A stretch of DNA of 64,000 nt from UHGV virus genome UHGV-1375844; one strand, given 5' to 3'. Positions within the stretch are counted from its first letter, which is position 1. Each line of letters opens with the position of its first letter. The notes beneath the pieces were generated by a model. It had not been told where the DNA came from, made no database searches, and was given only the letters and a program-made list of their open reading frames with translations. The position numbers and the translations under genes were made by a program. The DNA is from a virus. Of the stretch, positions 6,032 through 60,626 are shown one piece after another.

Positions 6032-6050
6032 GTGCTTTCCTTTAGTTCTT

Positions 6051-6066
6051 AAACAAATTGTTTTCT
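6051..6066. promoter_or_regulatory. motif B core copy
   Basis: AAACAAATTGTTTTCT about 20 nt upstream of helicase ATG. Confidence 0.45.
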
Positions 6067-9111: not shown

Positions 9112-9130
9112 GAAACAACTTGTTTTCTTA
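9112..9130. promoter_or_regulatory. motif B copy upstream of ParA-like gene
   Basis: GAAACAACTTGTTTTCTTA followed by TATGCGATAT. Confidence 0.45.
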
Positions 9131-40920: not shown

Positions 40921-40965
40921 TAAACAATTTGTTTAAATCTCTGTCTAACCAATTTGTTTTCTGGG
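40921..40965. promoter_or_regulatory. motif B copies (two half-elements) upstream of terminase small subunit
   Basis: TAAACAATTTGTTTAAA and AACCAATTTGTTTTCTGG. Confidence 0.45.
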
Positions 40966-49780: not shown

Positions 49781-49816
49781 TAAACAATTTGTTTTCTTGA
49801 TGGTTTAATTATCGCT
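49781..49816 (-). promoter_or_regulatory. motif B promoter/operator copy
   Basis: Minus strand reads GCGATAATTAAACCATCAAGAAAACAAATTGTTTAAAGGA then ATG. Confidence 0.5.
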
Positions 49817-49990
49817 ACGCGTATCAGGCGTCCAAGCGCTCTATTCCGGCATCTGTTTGCCTGAAGGGAGTCAGAGGGTCGTTCGGTAGCCTGGCGGTAA
49901 GAGGTGGGTGTTTTGCCTGATGTGATGAGGTTGGTATATCTGGCGGGCAAGCGGTGCTATCTTGGCCGCAGGTAACTCAGGAGACTCAAG

Positions 49991-50506: not shown

Positions 50507-50542
50507 GTAAACAATTTGTTTTCTTGTTGGTGTAATTATCGC
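50507..50542 (-). promoter_or_regulatory. motif B promoter/operator copy
   Basis: Minus strand TGCGATAATTACACCAACAAGAAAACAAATTGTTTAC. Confidence 0.5.
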
Positions 50543-51460: not shown

Positions 51461-51497
51461 GTAAACAATTTGTTTTCTTGATGGCGTAAATAATACC
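51461..51497 (-). promoter_or_regulatory. motif B promoter/operator copy
   Basis: GTAAACAATTTGTTTTCTTGATGGCGTAAATAATACC on plus strand. Confidence 0.5.
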
Positions 51498-52053: not shown

Positions 52054-52089
52054 CTAAACACGTTGTTTTCTTATTGGTGTTATTATCGC
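52054..52089 (-). promoter_or_regulatory. motif B copy in divergent region
   Basis: CTAAACACGTTGTTTTCTTATTGGTGTTATTATCGC between minus gene start 52038 and plus gene start 52181. Confidence 0.5.
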
Positions 52090-52426: not shown

Positions 52427-52604
52427 ACGTCCTCGGCAATTTCGCCACCAAAACCCTTAACCCTTTACACTAGCTCTGGCTTCCCGACATGAGCGTGCGA
52501 AGCTAGTCTGGTCTCAACACTCAATTGCGGGACTCACAAGTTCCCGCAATATTCAGGTTAACGAGAAGCAAGACACACTCCCGCAGCGCTCCCTCGCTCT
52601 TTAC

Positions 52605-52750
52605 CGGGATGCATCCGTTTCCTGACCTGAAGCCAGCCTTTTCCCGGTTCGCATGACGGGATTCTCCCCGTTTCCCTGAAAAACCCAGCCGTTTCCCTGC
52701 GGCGATGCTCCCGTTTTCCAGTAGGGATGCAGCCTTTTCTCTGGATGGCC
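52605..52750. repeat. iteron-like direct repeats (GCCGTTTCCC family), about 6 copies
   Basis: CATCCGTTTCC, CAGCCTTTTCCC, CCCCGTTTCCC, CAGCCGTTTCCC, CCCGTTTTCC, CAGCCTTTTCTC at about 22-28 bp spacing. Confidence 0.6.
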
Positions 52751-52979
52751 CGCAGGTTGACCGTAGGGGTGGGGAGGGACGTTACGGGAGATAAAATCAT
52801 GGCTTGAATAAATACGGGAAAAGTAGCGATCCCCCTCTTCCCCTTCCCACTTATACCTCCAGTTAAATCTCTGCGTTCCTCTCTCCTTTAATCGAATCTG
52901 TCTTCCCTCCGATAAGGCTCAATACGATGACTACCTCTGTACGTGAAATGGGTGGTTCGTACTCTCTGCCGGCATATGT

Positions 52980-53470
52980 CTTTTTGCGCTTCTTGAGGCT
53001 GTTCTTCTATGCGTTTTCTTCTGGGTTGTTTTCGTCTCTTTGGGTGTTCTTCTTCTCTGGGTATTGAGTAATGGCAGGTGTGCTTTCCTCTTCGTTTACT
53101 TGCTGAGAAGGAAGTGTGGGGAATGGCAGTAGGGCGCTTTAGTTGTTCTCTGCATATCAAGTAATAGCGTTCCCTGCTTTTCAGGACTTTGCGCTCTCTT
53201 CAGGGGTAATGGTGGGTAAGTAAGATTGCAACGGCTCCTGTTCTGGTCTGGGTTTGCCCGGGGTTGCATTCTGAGCGCTGTTCTCTGTGTTTTGGGTAAT
53301 GGCATGTAGAGGATTGCGTGCGCGAGCTGCGTCTCGGTTGCCTGGTGGCATTAGGTGGGTGGTCGGTAGCCTGGGGTCAAGAGGTGGGTCTATTCCATAG
53401 CCTGGTGGTAAGAGGTGGGTAGTTTCCGGGGGTTGTGGGCAATGGCGCCTCTGGGTTTCCCGCGGGTGGG
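52980..53470. repeat. degenerate tandem direct repeats in ORF-free region
   Basis: Recurring TTCTCTGGGT...GGTAATGGC units (period roughly 75-80 bp) and 3 copies of TAGCCTGG.GGT.AAGAGGTGGGT; a fourth copy of the latter lies at about 49871. Confidence 0.55.
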
Positions 53471-53510
53471 ATTAATTTGTTTTCTTGCTGTAGAAAACAA
53501 CTTGTTTAAA
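53471..53510. promoter_or_regulatory. motif B copies in both orientations
   Basis: ATTAATTTGTTTTCTTGC and GAAAACAACTTGTTTAAA. Confidence 0.4.
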
Positions 53511-53706
53511 TGGGCAATTTAACGCAATCAGAGCGCTTTTGAGCGTGTCTGTTTTTGGGTGGTGTGTTGAGTCGTTAGAGATGCTTTCGTCGCGAGGTGA
53601 TTGATTCTGGTGGGCAGGATAGCGGGTATAAGAGATGGCATGTGAAAACGTCAACTTTTTAGACTAAATCGGGAGAATGCATTGACATTTCTTTGATGTG
53701 TTATTT

Positions 53707-53731
53707 ATTTGTTTTCTCATATGCGTAATTA
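53707..53731. promoter_or_regulatory. motif B-like copy
   Basis: ATTTGTTTTCTCATATGCGTAATTA (compare 9112..9130). Confidence 0.35.
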
Positions 53732-54075
53732 ACTGAAAGCCCTTGTCACGCCTGGTCTGGTGTAGGTTGGGAGAGTGGAGAAAGTGGCGATCAACGGACT
53801 CTTATAGAAATCCTCATTTTGTGACCGCCAATGTCAACGATTTGACTAAATCAGATGGTCGAGTTCATCGTTGATTTGCTCTCTCAGGGAGGAATCGTTT
53901 ACACCCCACGCGTCAATCCTTTGCCTCAACTCTGGACTGAATTGCATATAGATGCTGTGGATGATTTGTGGGGTAGGGGTTAAACCTCTCATCGCAATGC
54001 ACTGGTACAGGTATGACTTTTCACTGAACACTGTTAAATGCCCTCATTTGATTGAAAAGTGCATTTTAACCTTAG

Positions 54076-54393
54076 TCACCAGTCCCATGAGGTAAGTCCG
54101 TCCACCAGCTCGGCATCACGGTCGAAATGTACCGAATCGAAGCCAGCATCGAGTACTGCCTGAATATTCGTTATCGTCTCTTCGGAGATATTGTAGGCAC
54201 GCAGTTCTTCCTTCCAGTCATTCCCCCGTAATCCGGCCCGGACAATCCATCCGTACTTGCTACCGTGTACCCAATTCAGCCCGCGGTCTGTGATTGGGTC
54301 GAAACTTACGACAGGCAGACGTTCAGAGTCTTCGCCCGTTACGTGAGCGGTGCTGATCACCGCCGTCTTATAGGACTCGGTGATTTTCAGCAT
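54076..54393 (-). CDS. hypothetical protein (105 aa)
   Basis: ORF coupled to the upstream gene. Confidence 0.5.
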   Translation of the reverse strand: MLKITESYKTAVISTAHVTGEDSERLPVVSFDPITDRGLNWVHGSKYGWIVRAGLRGNDWKEELRAYNISEETITNIQAVLDAGFDSVHFDRDAELVDGLTSWDW

Positions 54394-54629
54394 GATGACT
54401 TCTCCTTCGGAAAGAGGGTTTCAGCCGTGTCAGAGATAACATCCCAATTCACGCCCACATTAGCATCATGGCAATCCTTGATTTTACGCATCACCTGTAC
54501 GCACTGCTCGTCTGTCAGATCCGGTCGAACCTGGCTTACGTCTTCCTTGTGCCACATGACCATCAGCAGCGGCTCATCTTCCGGGTAGTTCTCCAGTTTT
54601 TCGGTTATCTCTTTAGCGGTTCCGAACAT
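54387..54629 (-). CDS. hypothetical protein (80 aa)
   Basis: ORF trimmed to second ATG, which has AAGGAG RBS lying within motif B. Confidence 0.45.
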   Translation of the reverse strand: MFGTAKEITEKLENYPEDEPLLMVMWHKEDVSQVRPDLTDEQCVQVMRKIKDCHDANVGVNWDVISDTAETLFPKEKSSC

Positions 54630-54639
54630 TATTAACTCC

Positions 54640-54675
54640 TTAAACATCTTGTTTTCTTGTTGGTGTTATTATCTC
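54640..54675 (-). promoter_or_regulatory. motif B promoter/operator copy
   Basis: TTAAACATCTTGTTTTCTTGTTGGTGTTATTATCTC. Confidence 0.5.
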
Positions 54676-54713
54676 AATTTACAAGAGGCAGAAAACAAAA
54701 TGTTTAAGGGGAG

Positions 54714-54980
54714 TCAGGTCAGACTGAAGTCGTCCATATCATCCACAAACTCCATGAACCTTGCTTCAACATCAGCCAGTATAAGGAGATAGGCCAGACC
54801 TTCGCTCAGCGAAACAGGCTTTTCTATAACAAACTCAAAGCCGTCGATATGGGTTTTGCCCAACCAATACCCCCCGCCATATTTCTTTAGCCGTTGAAAG
54901 AAAACGTATCCTCCCGGAACGAAATTGTTTAGCGTCTCGCCTCTGTATACGATCTGGTAATTTGAATCTTTGCCGCCCAT
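54714..54980 (-). CDS. hypothetical protein (88 aa)
   Basis: GGGAGG RBS before ATG. Confidence 0.45.
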   Translation of the reverse strand: MGGKDSNYQIVYRGETLNNFVPGGYVFFQRLKKYGGGYWLGKTHIDGFEFVIEKPVSLSEGLAYLLILADVEARFMEFVDDMDDFSLT

Positions 54981-55050
54981 TTTTACCTCCCAAACAACTG
55001 TATATATTTACAGTAGTATTAAGGCAAAAATCAGTCAATTTAGAAGGGTG

Positions 55051-55087
55051 TGATAATAACTTATGTGTGAAAACAAATTGTTTAAGG
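55051..55087 (+). promoter_or_regulatory. motif B copy in plus orientation
   Basis: TGATAATAACTTATGTGTGAAAACAAATTGTTTAAGG, orientation opposite to flanking genes. Confidence 0.4.
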
Positions 55088-55103
55088 CCACAACAGTGGC
55101 CTT
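55068..55103 (-). terminator. intrinsic terminator
   Basis: AAGGCCAC-loop-GTGGCCTT; on minus strand followed by AAACAATTTGTTTTC, so the motif B core doubles as U-tract. Confidence 0.45.
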
Positions 55104-55110
55104 AATATGA

Positions 55111-55296
55111 TCATTCGCCGTGGTTGTTTTCGGTTTGTCTCAACTCTTCGTTAATCATGCGCTTACTCTGCTGTCGCGCTCGATGCTTACAGGCCCGAAG
55201 TTCCGAGTCGTAACCGTTCCCCTTTCTGTAACCACGAGAACGACATAACGAGCAGGTACACCCATCGGCTGAATAGAATTTACCAAAGGGCTGCAT
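55111..55296 (-). CDS. small Cys-rich basic protein (61 aa)
   Basis: C.C..C...C..H pattern suggests zinc binding. Confidence 0.4.
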   Translation of the reverse strand: MQPFGKFYSADGCTCSLCRSRGYRKGNGYDSELRACKHRARQQSKRMINEELRQTENNHGE

Positions 55297-55514
55297 TATT
55301 CTCCCCCTGTAAGCTGTTTTGTCTGCTTAGCCTCAAGAGCTGCCAAACGCTTCTCTAAGTCGTCCACCTCATCAAGCAAAGCGAGGACGATGACTGGAGT
55401 GGCCAGGGCATCGAACTTTAATCTCGCAGCCCGGCCCCGGAGATGATTTTCTACACCGCCGAGTTCATCTGCTCTTTCAGCTGCCTTACGCAGCGCCTTT
55501 TTGTCAACTTTCAT
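55296..55514 (-). CDS. hypothetical coiled-coil protein (72 aa)
   Basis: Small ORF in early-gene run; start overlaps stop of the upstream gene, stop abuts start of the next. Confidence 0.4.
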   Translation of the reverse strand: MKVDKKALRKAAERADELGGVENHLRGRAARLKFDALATPVIVLALLDEVDDLEKRLAALEAKQTKQLTGGE

Positions 55515-56068
55515 GCAGCTCGCTCCATCTCAACCAGCCCGGTGCGGACAACGTTTAAGATCCGCTCCAGGTATTCGTATTCGGGGTTTGGTACAGAAGG
55601 CCAGTTTGCATACCACGGCTCATCTCCGAACAGATCCATCAGCTCATTTCCAATACCGAAACCGCAACAGTTTTCTTTCACATCATCGGCGTTTTCAGGC
55701 TCGTCCCACATGTCCCGAGCCTTTGATGAGTCAATCTCACGTTCTCTGCGGAGCTTCAAAATCTCCGATTTAACAAAGCGAAGGTTGGCCTCATTGTCGT
55801 CGTCGACCGTTTTACGAAGATGTGCGTCCAGACAACCGATAAGATAGTCATTACTTACCCGCTTAATGAACTCCTGCACCGTATCGCCTCCCATTGCAGA
55901 CCACGCGCCAGTCCATACTTTCCCGAAACAAGTAATAGTGATGCGACCTTTGCCCGGCTCGTAGTTTTCAATCATGACGCGTACCGGGTCGAGACGTTCC
56001 AGGTCTGTCAGAACGAATGACAGAACATCTATCTTTTCGACTTTCACATGGCCTCCCATGCATTCCAT
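55511..56068 (-). CDS. hypothetical protein (185 aa)
   Basis: ORF overlapping the upstream gene by 25 nt. Confidence 0.5.
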   Translation of the reverse strand: MECMGGHVKVEKIDVLSFVLTDLERLDPVRVMIENYEPGKGRITITCFGKVWTGAWSAMGGDTVQEFIKRVSNDYLIGCLDAHLRKTVDDDNEANLRFVKSEILKLRREREIDSSKARDMWDEPENADDVKENCCGFGIGNELMDLFGDEPWYANWPSVPNPEYEYLERILNVVRTGLVEMERAA

Positions 56069-56697
56069 ATCAGCGCTTTATGCTTCTCGTAACGTTTAGC
56101 GTGTACCGGTTGCAGACTGGCAATGCCGGCCGTCACCATCGTCCGCGCATTTGTCAGCAGAGTGTGTTCCATGCCTTTCTTCTCCAGGTACTCGACAACA
56201 CCTGCATCTGCGCCGATCTCTTTACCCATAAAGAGTACGGCCAGCATTAATTCTTTCTCAGCGAGGTAGATAGCGGAAAACTCAGGATCGCGGCTAACAA
56301 TGGATGAGGTATTGTCCAGCAAATCCGCGAGCTTAATCACACGCGTCTGCATATCGAGGCTTTGCTCCAGCTCCCGAACGTTGATAATGAATCGCTGGAT
56401 GCGATTACCGTCTTCTGGCCTGGCGACGTTGGTCAGTGCCAGCACCATTTCAGCGACACGCTCACCGAAGTGTTCCCGTACCATTTCGATAGTGACTTTG
56501 GTGTCTTCAACTACGTCATGCAGTAACGCGGCGATCTGCATATCAATACTTCCACCATGCCACGCAACAATTTCGCGAACCGCGACTGGATGATTAATGT
56601 AATCCTCGCCGGTGTATTTGCGCTTCTGGCCTATACCTCCATGAGCACCAGCGGCAAACATATGAGCTTTGGTAATACTGGACATACTTAACTCCAT
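56044..56697 (-). CDS. HD-domain (p)ppGpp-hydrolase-like protein (small alarmone hydrolase candidate)
   Basis: SpoT/RelA-type HD signature: YINHPVAV, AALLHDVVEDT, KLADLLDN; true start may be ATG at 56685 which has a GGAG RBS. Confidence 0.65.
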   Translation of the reverse strand: MELSMSSITKAHMFAAGAHGGIGQKRKYTGEDYINHPVAVREIVAWHGGSIDMQIAALLHDVVEDTKVTIEMVREHFGERVAEMVLALTNVARPEDGNRIQRFIINVRELEQSLDMQTRVIKLADLLDNTSSIVSRDPEFSAIYLAEKELMLAVLFMGKEIGADAGVVEYLEKKGMEHTLLTNARTMVTAGIASLQPVHAKRYEKHKALIWNAWEAM

Positions 56698-56714
56698 TGT
56701 TTTCTCGATGTGGT

Positions 56715-56758
56715 TATTTTCACATACAAGAAAATGCAGAAAACAAATTGTTAAAGGC
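56715..56758. promoter_or_regulatory. motif B copy
   Basis: TTATTTTCACATACAAGAAAATGCAGAAAACAAATTGTTAAAGG; element readable in both orientations. Confidence 0.45.
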
Positions 56759-56772
56759 CACTACTGTGGCCC
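56738..56772 (-). terminator. intrinsic terminator
   Basis: GGCCAC-loop-GTGGCC hairpin then AACAATTTGTTTTCT on the minus strand. Confidence 0.4.
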
Positions 56773-56777
56773 TAAAT

Positions 56778-57149
56778 TTATTCAGCAAGCAGCGTCTTCA
56801 TCATTACTTGCATCTCGCTTTCCCGCTCTTTGGCGATACGTGCATTCTCTTCTTCCACAAGACGCTTCAATCTTTCCATCGTGGCAAAAGACGCTCGACG
56901 CCTGGCGCTCTCATCAATAGCGTGAGCATCCATTGAGATAAGGAAACCAAAGTGCTGGAAGCCCATGCCGACGAAAATCTCATAGAGCCTTGAGTCACAC
57001 TCGAACAAAGCGATGCCGTTCCGAACCTCAAGCAGCACTCCCTCTTCCATCAGCTTCGCCAACCCTCTGTCCCAGACAGGGCAGTAGCGATAATGGAAAC
57101 CGTCAAACAGTGCGGTACAAAACAGTGAAATGGCGTTTCCAAACTTCAT
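56778..57149 (-). CDS. hypothetical protein (123 aa)
   Basis: ORF, no recognisable motif. Confidence 0.45.
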   Translation of the reverse strand: MKFGNAISLFCTALFDGFHYRYCPVWDRGLAKLMEEGVLLEVRNGIALFECDSRLYEIFVGMGFQHFGFLISMDAHAIDESARRRASFATMERLKRLVEEENARIAKERESEMQVMMKTLLAE

Positions 57150-57151
57150 GA

Positions 57152-57433
57152 TTACTCTCCCTTACTACTTGCTCTGTTCGCCTGAACTTCCTTAGCCAGA
57201 TCGTAAGTAATTTTGCATGGCACAATCATCGCCCAGCCTTTTTCGTGGCTGTTAATCACCTGCTGGATATGACCATCTGTAATAGGGATATCCGGCAGTG
57301 CTTTGAACGTGGCGATCTGCTCCTGTATCTCCAAAAAGAACTGCGCCAGCTCCATCTGTTCGCCGCGGGTTAAGGGGTGTTCCAGTGGACATCGGACAAA
57401 ATCCGCGACACGTTTGATGCTGAGATCACTCAT
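57152..57433 (-). CDS. hypothetical protein (93 aa)
   Basis: ORF, coupled to the upstream gene. Confidence 0.45.
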   Translation of the reverse strand: MSDLSIKRVADFVRCPLEHPLTRGEQMELAQFFLEIQEQIATFKALPDIPITDGHIQQVINSHEKGWAMIVPCKITYDLAKEVQANRASSKGE

Positions 57434-58119
57434 GCCGAGGCCTCTTTAGCCTTTGCTTCCAAATCGCGAACATATTGCACAAGCGAGCCACCTGGTGGGA
57501 TCTGGCACTCTTCTACCAGCTGGAAGTAGATATCGGCTGCGGCTCGGGTGTTTGAACCTTTTGTCAGCTTTTCTTCGCGCAGTGCGGCGCATTCGTTAAT
57601 AAGACGATCACACTCGCCATTGCGCTGATCAATCACGGCTTCCAGTTCTGCAATTCGCTCGCCTGGCGTTTTGCCTTCCTTACGTTGAGTCGTCACGGTA
57701 AAGTCACCCAGCTCCGGCACGCTGTAAGTTAGCTCCAGGTAGTTACTGGCGCCGTGACGAACAAACTCGCCGGCGAACATGGTGCCGAACATTGCAGAGG
57801 CCAGCTCGCCATTAAAAAGCGACTCCAGATCTAACGGAGTACCGGCAGCCAGCGCCTCTTTAGCTGTTTCCATTGCGTCCATGAACCGATCGAACTCATT
57901 AGCGCGTTTTTCCAGGTTTCTCCATTGCTGACTCCAACGTTTTGCAACGTGTTCCACGAACACCTGGGCAGCGGAATCAAACTCGCCGGTGAACGTCACT
58001 TTGTCTTTGTCGATGGTAATCTTGCCGACCTGTTTGTTCGAGTTGCCCTGAAGCACCAAGTTGAATGGCGTGTCAGCTACACTCGCAGAGGCTATAAATG
58101 GCGCTACTGTATTTTTCAT
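57430..58119 (-). CDS. hypothetical protein (229 aa)
   Basis: ORF with motif A upstream. Confidence 0.5.
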   Translation of the reverse strand: MKNTVAPFIASASVADTPFNLVLQGNSNKQVGKITIDKDKVTFTGEFDSAAQVFVEHVAKRWSQQWRNLEKRANEFDRFMDAMETAKEALAAGTPLDLESLFNGELASAMFGTMFAGEFVRHGASNYLELTYSVPELGDFTVTTQRKEGKTPGERIAELEAVIDQRNGECDRLINECAALREEKLTKGSNTRAAADIYFQLVEECQIPPGGSLVQYVRDLEAKAKEASA

Positions 58120-58157
58120 TTTTCTCCCTCAGTCATCTGTTCCAATTCTTACACAAA

Positions 58158-58177
58158 ATAAGTAAGTATTTACCTAT
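58158..58177. promoter_or_regulatory. motif A palindrome copy
   Basis: ATAAGTAAGTATTTACCTAT abutting the methyltransferase stop codon. Confidence 0.45.
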
Positions 58178-59880
58178 CATTTAATGCGTTTGAAAACGTA
58201 CACGCTTACAGTGATCCCCGTGTCCTCAAACTCATCAGTGAATGACTTGCCTTTGGCGTAGACGTAATTGTCCAGCGTCATCCAGTTTAGAATTGATGAG
58301 TCTCCCGGTAATACTGCTACCAGGCGCCCACCGACTTTCAGATGCCCCAGCCCGGCCAGCGTGTGCTCTTTGTGGCGGCCGAGAGAGTAGGGTGGGTTCA
58401 TGACAATCTTGTCGAATTGATAACCTGCATTATCGGCAGACCATTTCATGAAGTCACAGCAGACCGTGTTTACGTAGCCTTTGCCAACAAGGATGTCAGC
58501 GAAGAGCGGGGCAATCTCAATACAGGTGACGTCTTCAGGATTGGTCTCGATATAAGCAAGCAGATCTCCGCGACCAGCTTCCGGCTCCAGCAATGTTTCA
58601 CCGGATTTCAAATCAACGGCTTTGGCTACGTACTCAGCGATTACGCGTGGGGTAGGGTAAAATTGATGTGATTTTGCATCTGGGATCAGACCCGTGGCCA
58701 CAATCGTATTGAGCGTATGACCGATCTCATACGGGAACTGCCAGTGCCCCTTCTCCTGCACGCCGCCAATGAAGCTCAGTGTGCGCACCAGCTCTTCCAC
58801 CTGCGACTTCTGAAGGCTCGAATCTGAGAAGTACCAGACACCTTTGTCTTTGCTGAATCGCCCGTCACGCAACGTGGTGCGAACAGGTTCAGAGATGGTC
58901 TTTTGGATGAGGCCAAACTCTTTAGGCGCTCGGGCTTTTGGCGCTGTTCTGCAAGGGGCAGGGATAGCAGCAGGCATACTGTACGCCAGCACTTCATTTA
59001 GTTTCCAGGCCACATCCGGATGGATCTCAAAATGTACGTTGCCGTTCTTGAACATCTTCACACGCATCAGGTTTCCGTCGACATTCATCCAGTCACCGGT
59101 CTGGCAGTCGTTCGCCCGGTACGCAGCTGATAGCATCTCCGTTGTGCGGTTGATGGTGATGAACTCTTTGTGCGCAAAAAAATGAAGCATAACGCGCAGG
59201 TCGTCGATGTAGTCTTCCTTCCGATAGTTCACGCTGACGCTGTCCCTCCAGAACTCGGAAATGCAGCTGGCGATGATCAGACGCTCGCTGAAGCCGTTCG
59301 TCTTATTGGTCTTGTGCGCAGGACTCAGCGCCTTAAACAAGCCATACACGCGCTCGGAAAGATATTTATGCCTGTCATTCAGCAAATTAAGCATCGTTGG
59401 GATGACCGTCTCTGCCTTGAACTCCGGCACACCAACGAACTCCTTAACCTTCATCTGGTAACCGGTTCTGTCTGTCTTGATAGTTTCCTGTTTGCCTTCT
59501 ATGAACTGTTCGCGCCACTCGTCACGGCGTGAAGCTGGCATGATCAGCAGAACGTTGGTCATATCCGTAACCTTCTTCCAGTACTCGGCCCAGATATTCT
59601 GTTTCACCCATTCCAGGTCGACTTTATCCAGCCAGGCTCTGTTAAAACGCGTGCGCTCATCATCCGGCCGGTGGTTGAGTCGCAGCAGACGGTTGATCAT
59701 GTTGTGGCGTTCGTCGCCATAAACGAAGTCGTGAACCTGATACATGAAGGCGATCTCTTTCTCGCACTCGGCCACAATTTCGTGGATGACGTTCATTTCC
59801 TGGCGATAGTCGATTTCAGTATTGGGCGTTACGGAGTCAATGATAGAAAGGGCTGTACTCATAATTGCACCATTAAACAA
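58177..59880 (-). CDS. N6-adenine DNA methyltransferase with ~390-aa N-terminal domain of unknown function
   Basis: C-terminal FYPTP, motif I-like EPEAGRGDL, catalytic NPPY (IVMNPPYS). Confidence 0.75.
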   Translation of the reverse strand: MFNGAIMSTALSIIDSVTPNTEIDYRQEMNVIHEIVAECEKEIAFMYQVHDFVYGDERHNMINRLLRLNHRPDDERTRFNRAWLDKVDLEWVKQNIWAEYWKKVTDMTNVLLIMPASRRDEWREQFIEGKQETIKTDRTGYQMKVKEFVGVPEFKAETVIPTMLNLLNDRHKYLSERVYGLFKALSPAHKTNKTNGFSERLIIASCISEFWRDSVSVNYRKEDYIDDLRVMLHFFAHKEFITINRTTEMLSAAYRANDCQTGDWMNVDGNLMRVKMFKNGNVHFEIHPDVAWKLNEVLAYSMPAAIPAPCRTAPKARAPKEFGLIQKTISEPVRTTLRDGRFSKDKGVWYFSDSSLQKSQVEELVRTLSFIGGVQEKGHWQFPYEIGHTLNTIVATGLIPDAKSHQFYPTPRVIAEYVAKAVDLKSGETLLEPEAGRGDLLAYIETNPEDVTCIEIAPLFADILVGKGYVNTVCCDFMKWSADNAGYQFDKIVMNPPYSLGRHKEHTLAGLGHLKVGGRLVAVLPGDSSILNWMTLDNYVYAKGKSFTDEFEDTGITVSVYVFKRIK

Positions 59881-59908
59881 ATTGTTTTCTTATTGGTGTT
59901 ATTTTCGC
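59873..59908 (-). promoter_or_regulatory. motif B promoter/operator copy
   Basis: TTAAACAAATTGTTTTCTTATTGGTGTTATTTTCGC immediately upstream of methyltransferase ATG. Confidence 0.5.
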
Positions 59909-60589: not shown

Positions 60590-60626
60590 TTAAACAAATT
60601 GTTTTGTGGATGGCTGTATTGTTACG
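60590..60626 (-). promoter_or_regulatory. motif B promoter/operator copy
   Basis: TTAAACAAATTGTTTTGTGGATGGCTGTATTGTTACG; leader AATAAGGAAAAACAC-ATG shared with copy at 62141. Confidence 0.5.

What the first reader, a model, noticed from the sequence alone, without database searches (positions are those of the whole stretch)
56044..56697. Phage-encoded HD-domain alarmone hydrolase candidate
The protein has the SpoT/RelA hydrolase signature (HPVAV, AALLHDVVEDT, KLADLLDN) without a synthetase domain. A phage enzyme that degrades (p)ppGpp or related alarmones could reprogram the host stringent response or counter alarmone-based immunity. It sits in an operon of small unknown genes behind a motif B element.
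Basis: partly seen in the sequence, partly recalled or inferred. Interest (0 to 1): 0.55.

Follow-up and report, generated by a model that had tools for sequence, protein, structure and literature searches.

The report
Phage-plasmid small alarmone hydrolase (PaSpo)

Summary
A minus-strand ORF at 56044-56697 encodes a single-domain RelA/SpoT-type HD hydrolase. Its real start is most likely 56685, giving 213 aa. All catalytic motifs are intact and there is no synthetase domain.

The window is an SSU5-like phage-plasmid of Salmonella enterica, 99-99.7% identical and colinear with pSA20094620.2. The protein is 100% identical to RefSeq WP_046622254.1 and 92% identical to SSU5 gp099.

SSU5 gp099 is PaSpo, the small alarmone hydrolase (SAH) that Jimmy et al. 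2020 showed neutralises all five toxic small alarmone synthetases they tested. It has since been used routinely as a detoxifying tool.

- The AlphaFold model (pLDDT 96.9) matches only SAH and Rel/SpoT hydrolase structures.
- dN/dS against SSU5 is 0.04.
- At least 168 enterobacterial plasmids carry orthologues of 80% identity or more.
- No toxin synthetase lies next to the gene, so this is an orphan SAH.

The most likely action is Mn2+-dependent removal of 3'-pyrophosphate from (p)ppGpp, (pp)pApp and pyrophosphorylated tRNA CCA ends. That would blunt CapRel-type immunity or the stringent response.

The gene heads a four-gene, translationally coupled operon. The operon is bracketed by hairpins and preceded by a strongly over-represented 17-bp palindromic motif.

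Novelty: already known. Interest: low.

The parts
56044..56685 (-). CDS of the small alarmone hydrolase (213 aa; PaSpo-subfamily SAH). The maximal ORF extends to an upstream ATG at 56697.
   Evidence: ORF list. Pfam HD_4, TIGR00691 N-terminal part and PHROG 990. 100% identical to WP_046622254.1 and 92% to SSU5 gp099. AlphaFold pLDDT 96.9. Foldseek hits are SAH/Rel/SpoT only. GGAG lies 6 nt before the ATG at 56685.
56716..56724 (-). Extended -10-like promoter element TGTGAAAAT. The predicted transcription start is near 56709.
   Evidence: Read from the sequence. The same TGnGATAAT-like element sits at the same offset in about 10 other copies of the repeat. This is an inference: the generic two-hexamer sigma-70 scan found no promoter here.
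56738..56754 (.). It is operator-like and overlaps the -35 position of the putative SAH promoter.
   Evidence: AGAAAACAANTTGTTTA with up to 2 mismatches gives 14 hits in the window against 0.01 expected. The motif is also present in SSU5 and Klebsiella phage-plasmid loci. Repeat families D1-D5 and D7.
56751..56774 (-). GC-rich hairpin (AGGGCCAC-AGUA-GUGGCCUU) between the upstream gene's stop codon and the SAH promoter. It is terminator-like.
   Evidence: RNA fold gives -16.1 kcal/mol, z=-3.3. The sequence is shown. The terminator scan did not flag it, because the T-tract is interrupted.
55511..56047 (-). Second gene of the operon: 178 aa, unknown function (PHROG 3451; precomputed Pfam PF26211). 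Its GTG start overlaps the SAH stop codon by 4 nt (GTGA).
   Evidence: The SSU5 gp099/gp100 pair has the same 4-nt overlap.
55296..55514 (-). Third gene: 72 aa, weak Ead/Ea22-like match. It overlaps the previous gene by 4 nt.
   Evidence: Pfam PF13935 E=7.4e-5, below the gathering score. PHROG hits have unknown function.
55111..55296 (-). Fourth gene: 61 aa, Cys-rich, unknown function (PHROG 14783). TAATG stop/start overlap with the third gene.
55082..55105 (-). Intrinsic-terminator-like hairpin that ends the SAH operon. It is followed by another copy of the palindromic motif (55068-55084).
   Evidence: Terminator scan. RNA fold gives -16.3 kcal/mol, z=-4.3. Motif hit.

Best explanation
The gene encodes an orphan small alarmone hydrolase (SAH) of the RelA/SpoT-homologue superfamily. 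It is the orthologue of PaSpo from Salmonella phage SSU5 and is carried on an SSU5-like phage-plasmid of Salmonella.

Mechanism. A Mn2+ ion is held by H32, H56, D57 and D121. The E60-D61 pair activates water. R22, K23 and N125 position the nucleotide. The enzyme removes the 3'-pyrophosphate from (p)ppGpp, from (pp)pApp and, most likely, from tRNA whose 3'-CCA end has been pyrophosphorylated.

Consequence. In the cell this reverses the action of toxic small alarmone synthetases, such as CapRel-type abortive-infection systems and FaRel/Tas1/Apk-type (pp)pApp toxins. It may also lower the host's stringent-response alarmone, which would protect replication of the element.

What is shown and what is inferred:
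- Shown here: sequence identity, motifs, fold, purifying selection and orphan status.
- Shown in the literature for the 92% orthologue: in vivo neutralisation of five toxSAS.
- Inferred: the substrate range of this particular protein, the timing of its expression and its role during infection or lysogeny.
For: - Family matches: HD_4 E=9.5e-19, TIGR00691 N-terminal region only, PHROG 990.
- 92% amino-acid identity to SSU5 gp099 and 100% to WP_046622254.1.
- SSU5 SAH (PaSpo) neutralises CapRel, PhRel, PhRel2, FaRel2 and FaRel (PMC7229694 Table 1). It is used to detoxify CapRelSJ46 and FaRel2, and is described as removing the tRNA modification.
- SAHs MESH1 and ATfaRel restore aminoacylation of CCA-pyrophosphorylated tRNA in vitro.
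- Catalytic residues align with MESH1 R24/H35/H61-D62/E65-D66/D122/N126.
- R22, H32, H56, E60, D61, D121 and N125 are invariant in 65 homologues, and D57 is kept in at least 90%.
- AlphaFold pLDDT is 96.9. The top 50 PDB fold hits are all SAH, Rel, RelA or SpoT hydrolase structures.
- dN/dS is 0.04 against SSU5, with dS 1.24.
- No RelA/SpoT synthetase is found in the neighbours or in the annotation of the 99%-identical plasmid.
- CapRel systems occur in Salmonella, E. coli, Enterobacter and Klebsiella, the same hosts as these phage-plasmids.
Against: - No biochemical assay of this protein exists, and I found none for purified SSU5 PaSpo either. The in vitro tRNA work used MESH1 and ATfaRel.
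- Neutralisation was shown by over-expression in E. coli, not during phage infection.
- No deletion phenotype is known.
- Decayed or chimeric alleles occur in related phage-plasmids: a 139-aa truncation on 139 contigs, an HD-to-HG variant, and N-terminal replacement fusions. The gene is therefore dispensable in some lineages.
- MESH1-like enzymes can also act on NADPH, so other substrates are possible.
Confidence: 0.85

Rival explanations
1. The enzyme mainly reprograms host physiology. By degrading host (p)ppGpp it suppresses the stringent response, so that the element can replicate in starved cells. Countering a dedicated toxSAS immune system would be secondary.
For: - The guanine-side residues are of the (p)ppGpp-hydrolase type: R22/K23 and T25 align with the R-R/K-S positions of Rel, MESH1 and Lmo0812 (residue roles from PMC10083569).
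- The stringent response is reported to restrict phage, and phages are reported to counter it by other means.
- Jimmy et al. also discuss alarmone accumulation as a form of abortive infection.
Against: - No measurement of ppGpp hydrolysis by PaSpo was found.
- The only experimental data are toxSAS neutralisation.
- The two roles are not mutually exclusive.
Confidence: 0.35
2. The enzyme acts as a lysogenic-conversion or immunity factor. Expressed from the resident plasmid-prophage, it protects the host from (pp)pApp-synthetase toxins that competitors deliver, such as T6SS Tas1-type effectors and phage MuF-Apk toxins.
For: - Hydrolase-type immunity proteins are 'universal' against (p)ppApp toxins.
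- PaSpo neutralises the (pp)pApp producer FaRel.
- The element is maintained as a plasmid (RepA, ParB, IncFIB typing).
Against: - The protein lacks the Aph1-type (p)ppApp-specific signature. Aph1 has D24, whereas this protein has an invariant R22 with K23 in the corresponding guanine-stacking motif. This mapping is my inference from the Rel/MESH1/Lmo0812 alignments, not a direct alignment to Aph1.
- It sits among early, phage-type accessory genes.
- Whether it is expressed during lysogeny is unknown.
Confidence: 0.2
3. It is the type IV antitoxin of a toxSAS encoded on the same element.
For: C. marina ATfaRel is an SAH antitoxin encoded next to its toxin.
Against: - None of the 10 neighbouring ORFs has a RelA_SpoT synthetase domain.
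- No such gene is annotated anywhere on the colinear, 99%-identical plasmid.
- Jimmy et al. describe the SSU5 enzyme as 'stand-alone'.
Confidence: 0.03
4. It is a MESH1-like NADPH phosphatase or another non-alarmone phosphohydrolase.
For: The best fold matches include human MESH1 bound to NADPH or PAPS. MESH1 is reported to be an NADPH phosphatase.
Against: MESH1 also neutralises toxSAS and hydrolyses (p)ppGpp and (p)ppApp. Promiscuity does not displace the demonstrated toxSAS neutralisation by PaSpo.
Confidence: 0.1

Closest known systems
PaSpo SAH of Salmonella phage SSU5 (gp099, AFL47026)
   Same: - 92% amino-acid identity over the full 213 aa, with all motifs identical.
- Same position in the same kind of element, and the same 4-nt overlap with the downstream gene.
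- Strong purifying selection between the two.
   Different: Seventeen substitutions, none at a catalytic position. SSU5 was isolated as a virion, whereas the closest relative of this window is recorded as a resident plasmid.
PbcSpo SAHs: C. marina ATfaRel and Salmonella phage PVP-SE1 SAH
   Same: Single-domain RSH hydrolases that neutralise all tested toxSAS. ATfaRel's activity is abolished by an active-site D54A mutation.
   Different: They belong to a different SAH subfamily. ATfaRel is encoded beside its toxin as an antitoxin, whereas this gene is an orphan.
Metazoan MESH1 (HDDC3; PDB 3NR1, 5VXA)
   Same: Best structural match (Foldseek E=5.5e-7, TM about 0.74 normalised to the target), with aligned catalytic residues. 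MESH1 hydrolyses (p)ppGpp and (p)ppApp and removes pyrophosphate from tRNA CCA ends.
   Different: Only 28% identity. The phage-plasmid protein is about 35 residues longer at the C terminus. In the 213-residue model the last two helices (H175-189 and H193-212) lie at or beyond the full length of MESH1, which is about 179 residues.
Aph1 (p)ppApp-specific hydrolase (Bacteroides caccae prophage; PDB 7SMG)
   Same: A phage-borne HD-domain 3'-pyrophosphohydrolase that serves as universal immunity to (p)ppApp toxins. It gives a detectable sequence and fold match.
   Different: - Weaker match (E=3.2e-7).
- Aph1 is shorter (about 149 aa), tetrameric and lacks the C-terminal helices.
- Its specificity residue D24 corresponds here to a basic residue (R22/K23), as in the (p)ppGpp-hydrolysing enzymes. 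This correspondence is an inference.

Membership tests
RSH superfamily, hydrolase (HD) domain | Significant match to the RelA/SpoT-type HD domain model (Pfam HD_4) | tested here: met
   HD_4 scores 68.1 bits against a gathering score of 27.2, E=9.5e-19. TIGR00691 matches profile positions 1-123, E=1.5e-24.
RSH superfamily, hydrolase (HD) domain | Mn2+-binding H...HD...D tetrad, catalytic ED pair, and substrate-binding R and N | tested here: met
   H32, H56-D57, D121, E60-D61, R22 and N125 align with MESH1 H35, H61-D62, D122, E65-D66, R24 and N126. They are invariant or at least 90% conserved in 65 homologues.
RSH superfamily, hydrolase (HD) domain | All-helical RSH hydrolase fold | tested here: met
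   AlphaFold pLDDT 96.9, 12 helices. Foldseek probability is 1.00 to MESH1, PaSAH, RelH, Rel and SpoT.
Small alarmone hydrolase (SAH) | Single-domain protein with no synthetase, TGS or ACT domains | tested here: met
   213 aa. Only HD-type Pfam families match significantly (HD_4 and HD). The long-RSH models match only at their N-terminal end.
Small alarmone hydrolase (SAH) | Mn2+-dependent 3'-pyrophosphohydrolase activity on (p)ppGpp and/or (p)ppApp | not testable with these tools
   This needs an enzyme assay. Only in vivo toxSAS neutralisation by the 92% orthologue is published.
PaSpo subfamily (Atkinson 2011 / Jimmy 2020 classification) | Placement in the PaSpo clade by the authors' subfamily HMMs and phylogeny | tested here: inconclusive
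   The authors' HMMs are not available here. Membership is by proxy: 92% identity to the SSU5 protein that the authors assign to PaSpo.
Type IV toxSAS antitoxin (ATfaRel-like) | Encoded in an operon with a toxic small alarmone synthetase | tested here: not met
   The neighbours carry no RelA_SpoT synthetase domain, and none is annotated on the colinear plasmid.
Aph1 (p)ppApp-specific hydrolases | Signature residues D24, D116, R119, K133 and Y134, plus absence of the C-terminal helices | tested here: not met
   The position equivalent to D24 is basic (R22/K23), by alignment to Rel, MESH1 and Lmo0812 and the residue mapping in PMC10083569. The C-terminal helices are present. The other signature residues were not mapped directly.

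The most novel reading that the evidence does not exclude
The SSU5-type SAH may be a weapon in conflicts between mobile elements rather than a simple anti-host device. On this reading it lets SSU5-like phage-plasmids establish in, or be induced from, Salmonella and E. coli cells that already carry CapRel-encoding P1-like prophages such as SJ46. Its lineage-specific C-terminal helices would adapt it to pyrophosphorylated tRNA as the preferred substrate. Its expression would be wired into a regulon controlled through the 17-bp palindrome found in front of a dozen early operons.
Probability: 0.2. Interest if true: 0.45.

Novelty: already known. Interest (0 to 1): 0.15.

Why it matters
Phage-borne alarmone hydrolases show how mobile elements can undo RelA/SpoT-type toxin immunity and stringent-response restriction. 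That point has already been made with the SSU5 enzyme itself. This window adds only another intact, strongly conserved copy.

Its practical value is for annotation. The roughly 170 'HD domain-containing protein' entries on SSU5-like plasmids of Salmonella (including pHCM2 of S. Typhi), E. coli, Klebsiella, Enterobacter and Citrobacter can be named PaSpo-type SAHs.

What remains open is biological. When is the gene expressed, does it matter during infection of CapRel-bearing hosts, and what is its preferred substrate?

Tried and rejected
- **Cis-encoded toxin synthetase (TA module).** Rejected. No synthetase domain is present in the 10 neighbouring ORFs or in the annotation of the colinear plasmid.
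- **Dedicated partnership with the translationally coupled 178-aa downstream protein.** Rejected. In Klebsiella SSU5-like elements the 52%-identical SAH is followed by the DUF4942 methyltransferase instead. The 178-aa family (PF26211) is spread through enterobacterial prophages and chromosomes, far beyond the SAH lineage.
- **Pseudogene or decayed copy.** Rejected for this window: the protein is full length, the motifs are intact and dN/dS is 0.04. Decayed alleles do exist elsewhere.
- **Canonical sigma-70 promoter scan.** It found nothing in 54500-58300. The promoter proposal rests only on the conserved extended -10-like element in the repeat.
- **Rfam and tRNA scans of the whole window.** Both found nothing.
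- **Literature search for a demonstrated counter-defence role of a phage SAH during infection.** I found no such demonstration.
- **Published in vitro assays of purified PaSpo.** None found. The tRNA de-pyrophosphorylation experiments used MESH1 and ATfaRel.

Full report
**Observation**

The minus strand carries an ORF at 56044..56697 (217 aa). The ATG at 56685 is the more likely start, for two reasons. It has a GGAG 6 nt upstream. It also gives the 213-aa product annotated both in RefSeq and in phage SSU5.

The protein matches several independent models:
- Pfam HD_4: E=9.5e-19, 68.1 bits against a cut-off of 27.2.
- PHROG 990 'metal-dependent phosphohydrolase': E=1.8e-51.
- The first 123 positions only of the 687-position RelA/SpoT model TIGR00691: E=1.5e-24.

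Sequence searches of the PDB return only Rel, RelA, SpoT, MESH1 and small alarmone hydrolase chains. This is therefore a real single-domain RSH hydrolase with no synthetase domain.

**What the element is**

The 3.2 kb around the gene is 98.9% identical to Salmonella enterica plasmid pSA20094620.2. The whole 64-kb window is colinear with positions 25004-89000 of that plasmid at 98.9-99.75% identity.

That record carries RepA, ParB and IncFIB typing. It also carries terminase, portal, major capsid, tape-measure and tail-fibre genes. It is therefore an SSU5-like phage-plasmid. Phage SSU5 itself matches the region at 77.5% nucleotide identity.

**Identity of the protein**

The window protein is 100% identical to WP_046622254.1 and 92% identical to SSU5 gp099, with no gaps. 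SSU5 gp099 is the 'PaSpo' small alarmone hydrolase (SAH).

- Jimmy et al. 2020 (PMC7229694) tested it in toxicity-neutralisation assays. It counteracted all five toxic small alarmone synthetases tested: CapRel, PhRel, PhRel2, FaRel2 and FaRel (Table 1).
- It has since been used as a helper to express CapRelSJ46 (PMC9712102).
- Kurata et al. showed that four of those toxins pyrophosphorylate the tRNA 3'-CCA end. They also showed that the SAHs MESH1 and ATfaRel reverse this in vitro.
- I found no in vitro assay of purified PaSpo itself.

**Active site, fold and selection**

In the HMMER alignment to human MESH1 (PDB 3NR1), the residues pair as follows (213-aa numbering):

| Window protein | MESH1 |
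|---|---|
| R22 | R24 |
| H32 | H35 |
| H56-D57 | H61-D62 |
| E60-D61 | E65-D66 |
| D121 | D122 |
| N125 | N126 |

In an alignment of 65 homologues down to 43% identity, R22, H32, H56, E60, D61, D121 and N125 are invariant. D57 is conserved in at least 90%.

An AlphaFold2 model built on that alignment has mean pLDDT 96.9 and twelve helices. Its 50 best Foldseek matches in the PDB are all SAHs or Rel/SpoT/RelA hydrolase domains: MESH1, P. aeruginosa SAH, C. glutamicum RelH, the Leptospira SAH and Aph1 among them. The protein is about 35 residues longer than MESH1. The last two helices of the model (H175-189 and H193-212) lie at or beyond the full length of MESH1, about 179 residues. This C-terminal region is shared by the roughly 212-aa Klebsiella orthologues but not by the 165-183-aa relatives in other phages.

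Against SSU5 the gene shows 82% nucleotide and 92% amino-acid identity. dN is 0.053 and dS is 1.24, so dN/dS is 0.04, which indicates strong purifying selection.

The basic R22/K23 and T25 occupy the positions that stack on and hydrogen-bond the guanine in Rel enzymes. In the (p)ppApp-specific Aph1 these positions are D24/K25/A26. The active site therefore looks like that of the (p)ppGpp-capable, broad-specificity SAHs rather than Aph1. This mapping is my inference from the alignments, not a direct alignment to Aph1.

**Genomic context**

The SAH is the first gene of a four-gene block on the minus strand.

| Gene | Coordinates | Product | Junction with previous gene |
|---|---|---|---|
| 1 | 56685-56044 | SAH, 213 aa | - |
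| 2 | 56047-55511 | 178 aa, unknown (PHROG 3451, PF26211) | GTG start overlaps the SAH stop as GTGA |
| 3 | 55514-55296 | 72 aa, weak Ead/Ea22-like match | ATGA overlap |
| 4 | 55296-55111 | 61 aa, Cys-rich | TAATG overlap |

The block is bracketed by two similar GC-rich hairpins, at 56774-56751 and 55105-55082. Each folds at about -16 kcal/mol, with z=-3.3 and -4.3. Upstream lie three further unknown genes and a DUF4942 DNA methyltransferase.

None of the ten neighbouring ORFs has a RelA/SpoT synthetase domain. None is annotated on the whole related plasmid. The SAH is therefore an orphan, not an antitoxin of a linked toxin.

The translational coupling to the 178-aa gene is also seen in SSU5, but it does not mark a dedicated partnership. 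In Klebsiella SSU5-like elements the 52%-identical SAH is followed directly by the DUF4942 methyltransferase. The 178-aa family is also widespread in enterobacterial prophages and chromosomes.

**The 'motif B' element**

Directly upstream of the SAH is one copy of a repeated intergenic module (families D1-D5 and D7). Its core is the palindromic 17-mer AGAAAACAANTTGTTTA. With up to two mismatches this occurs 14 times in the window, against 0.01 expected. It recurs in SSU5 and in Klebsiella phage-plasmids.

In most copies, reading in the direction of the genes, the order is:
1. a TGnGATAAT-like extended -10 element;
2. about 12 nt of spacer;
3. the 17-mer;
4. a Shine-Dalgarno sequence and the start codon.

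The SAH copy keeps the extended -10-like TGTGAAAAT (56724-56716). It has a full palindrome upstream (56738-54) that overlaps the -35 position. The downstream half-site is degenerate.

The reading as a promoter flanked by operators for an unknown dimeric regulator is an inference. The generic sigma-70 scan found no canonical promoter.

**Distribution**

- tblastn finds orthologues of at least 80% identity on 168 PLSDB plasmids of 105-115 kb from Salmonella, Citrobacter, Enterobacter, E. coli and Klebsiella. A megablast hit to pHCM2 of S. Typhi CT18 also lies over an HD-domain gene.
- A 52-57% identical clade sits on further Klebsiella phage-plasmids.
- Relatives occur in 268 phage records.
- Several related elements carry damaged alleles: a 139-aa truncation seen on 139 contigs, an HD-to-HG variant, and two chimeras that replace the N-terminal catalytic half. 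The gene is therefore accessory rather than essential.

**Mechanism and rivals**

The best-supported explanation (confidence about 0.85 for molecular function) is a Mn2+-dependent 3'-pyrophosphohydrolase. It would reverse the products of RSH-type synthetases: (p)ppGpp, (pp)pApp and pyrophosphorylated tRNA CCA ends.

The likely biological use is to escape CapRel-type abortive infection. CapRel systems occur in prophages of Salmonella and E. coli, and in Enterobacter and Klebsiella, which are the same hosts. A second possible use is to lower the stringent-response alarmone. Jimmy et al. explicitly proposed this counter-defence logic.

The rival roles overlap with one another, and only experiments can separate them. 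They are pure suppression of the stringent response, lysogen immunity to delivered (pp)pApp toxins, and NADPH phosphatase activity. The 'antitoxin of a linked toxin' reading is rejected.

**Verdict**

However, the enzyme, its subfamily name and its ability to neutralise toxic alarmone synthetases are already published for the orthologue in the type phage of this very group. The identical protein is already in RefSeq. Novelty is 'already known' and interest is low (0.15).

The open questions are expression timing, infection phenotype, preferred substrate, the role of the C-terminal helices, and the regulator that binds the 17-bp palindrome.

Noticed in passing
window 6050-6066, 9112-9128, 40946-40962, 49781-49797, 50508-50524, 51462-51478, 52055-52071, 53492-53508, 54641-54657, 54690-54706, 55068-55084, 56738-56754, 59874-59890, 60591-60607: The palindromic 17-mer AGAAAACAANTTGTTTA occurs 14 times against 0.01 expected. 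Most copies lie between a TGnGATAAT-like extended -10 element and the Shine-Dalgarno sequence of minus-strand genes. The motif is conserved in SSU5 and in Klebsiella phage-plasmids. It looks like the operator of an early-gene regulon, and its binding protein is unknown.
   Followed up: partly
window about 52430-54076 (for example 53333-53425, 53051-53307, 49882-49914): A stretch of about 1.6 kb has no annotated gene in the 99%-identical plasmid. It holds three tandem copies, about 30 nt apart, of GGTAGCCTGGnGGTAAGAGGTGGGT, with a fourth copy at 49882, plus other short direct repeats. The arrangement is iteron-like and could be an origin or a partition/incompatibility site. There are no Rfam or tRNA hits.
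   Followed up: no
P0008, P0009, P0011, P0012 (homologues of window 56044-56685): Related phage-plasmids carry decayed SAH alleles. P0011 is a 139-aa truncation found on 139 contigs. P0008 has LLHG in place of LLHD. P0009 has the first roughly 60 residues replaced by the N terminus of an AAA ATPase. P0012 is fused to the N terminus of the upstream 229-aa gene. The last two have lost H32 and the HD motif.
   Followed up: partly
L008/L009 4001-7936: A shorter SAH (165 aa, 54% identical over the core) sits in an unrelated phage-like contig. It lies three to five genes upstream of a Metallophos_2 phosphoesterase, an AAA_33/KTI12-type kinase and a T4 Rnl1-type RNA ligase. That gene set resembles a tRNA-repair set, which fits SAHs acting on damaged tRNA ends.
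   Followed up: no
window 57430-58119 and 55511-56047: PHROG 3451 (287 positions) matches the N-terminal 100 residues of the 229-aa protein upstream of the SAH. It also matches the whole 178-aa protein downstream, over profile positions 105-281. In some phages these two pieces therefore form a single protein, whereas here they are split on either side of the SAH.
   Followed up: no
window 58177-59862: A 561-aa orphan DNA methyltransferase (DUF4942 plus an N6-methyltransferase C-terminal part; PHROG 6263) lies just upstream. The related plasmid also has a Dam-like methyltransferase a few kb further on. The SAH thus sits in an accessory region that is likely to serve counter-defence.
   Followed up: no
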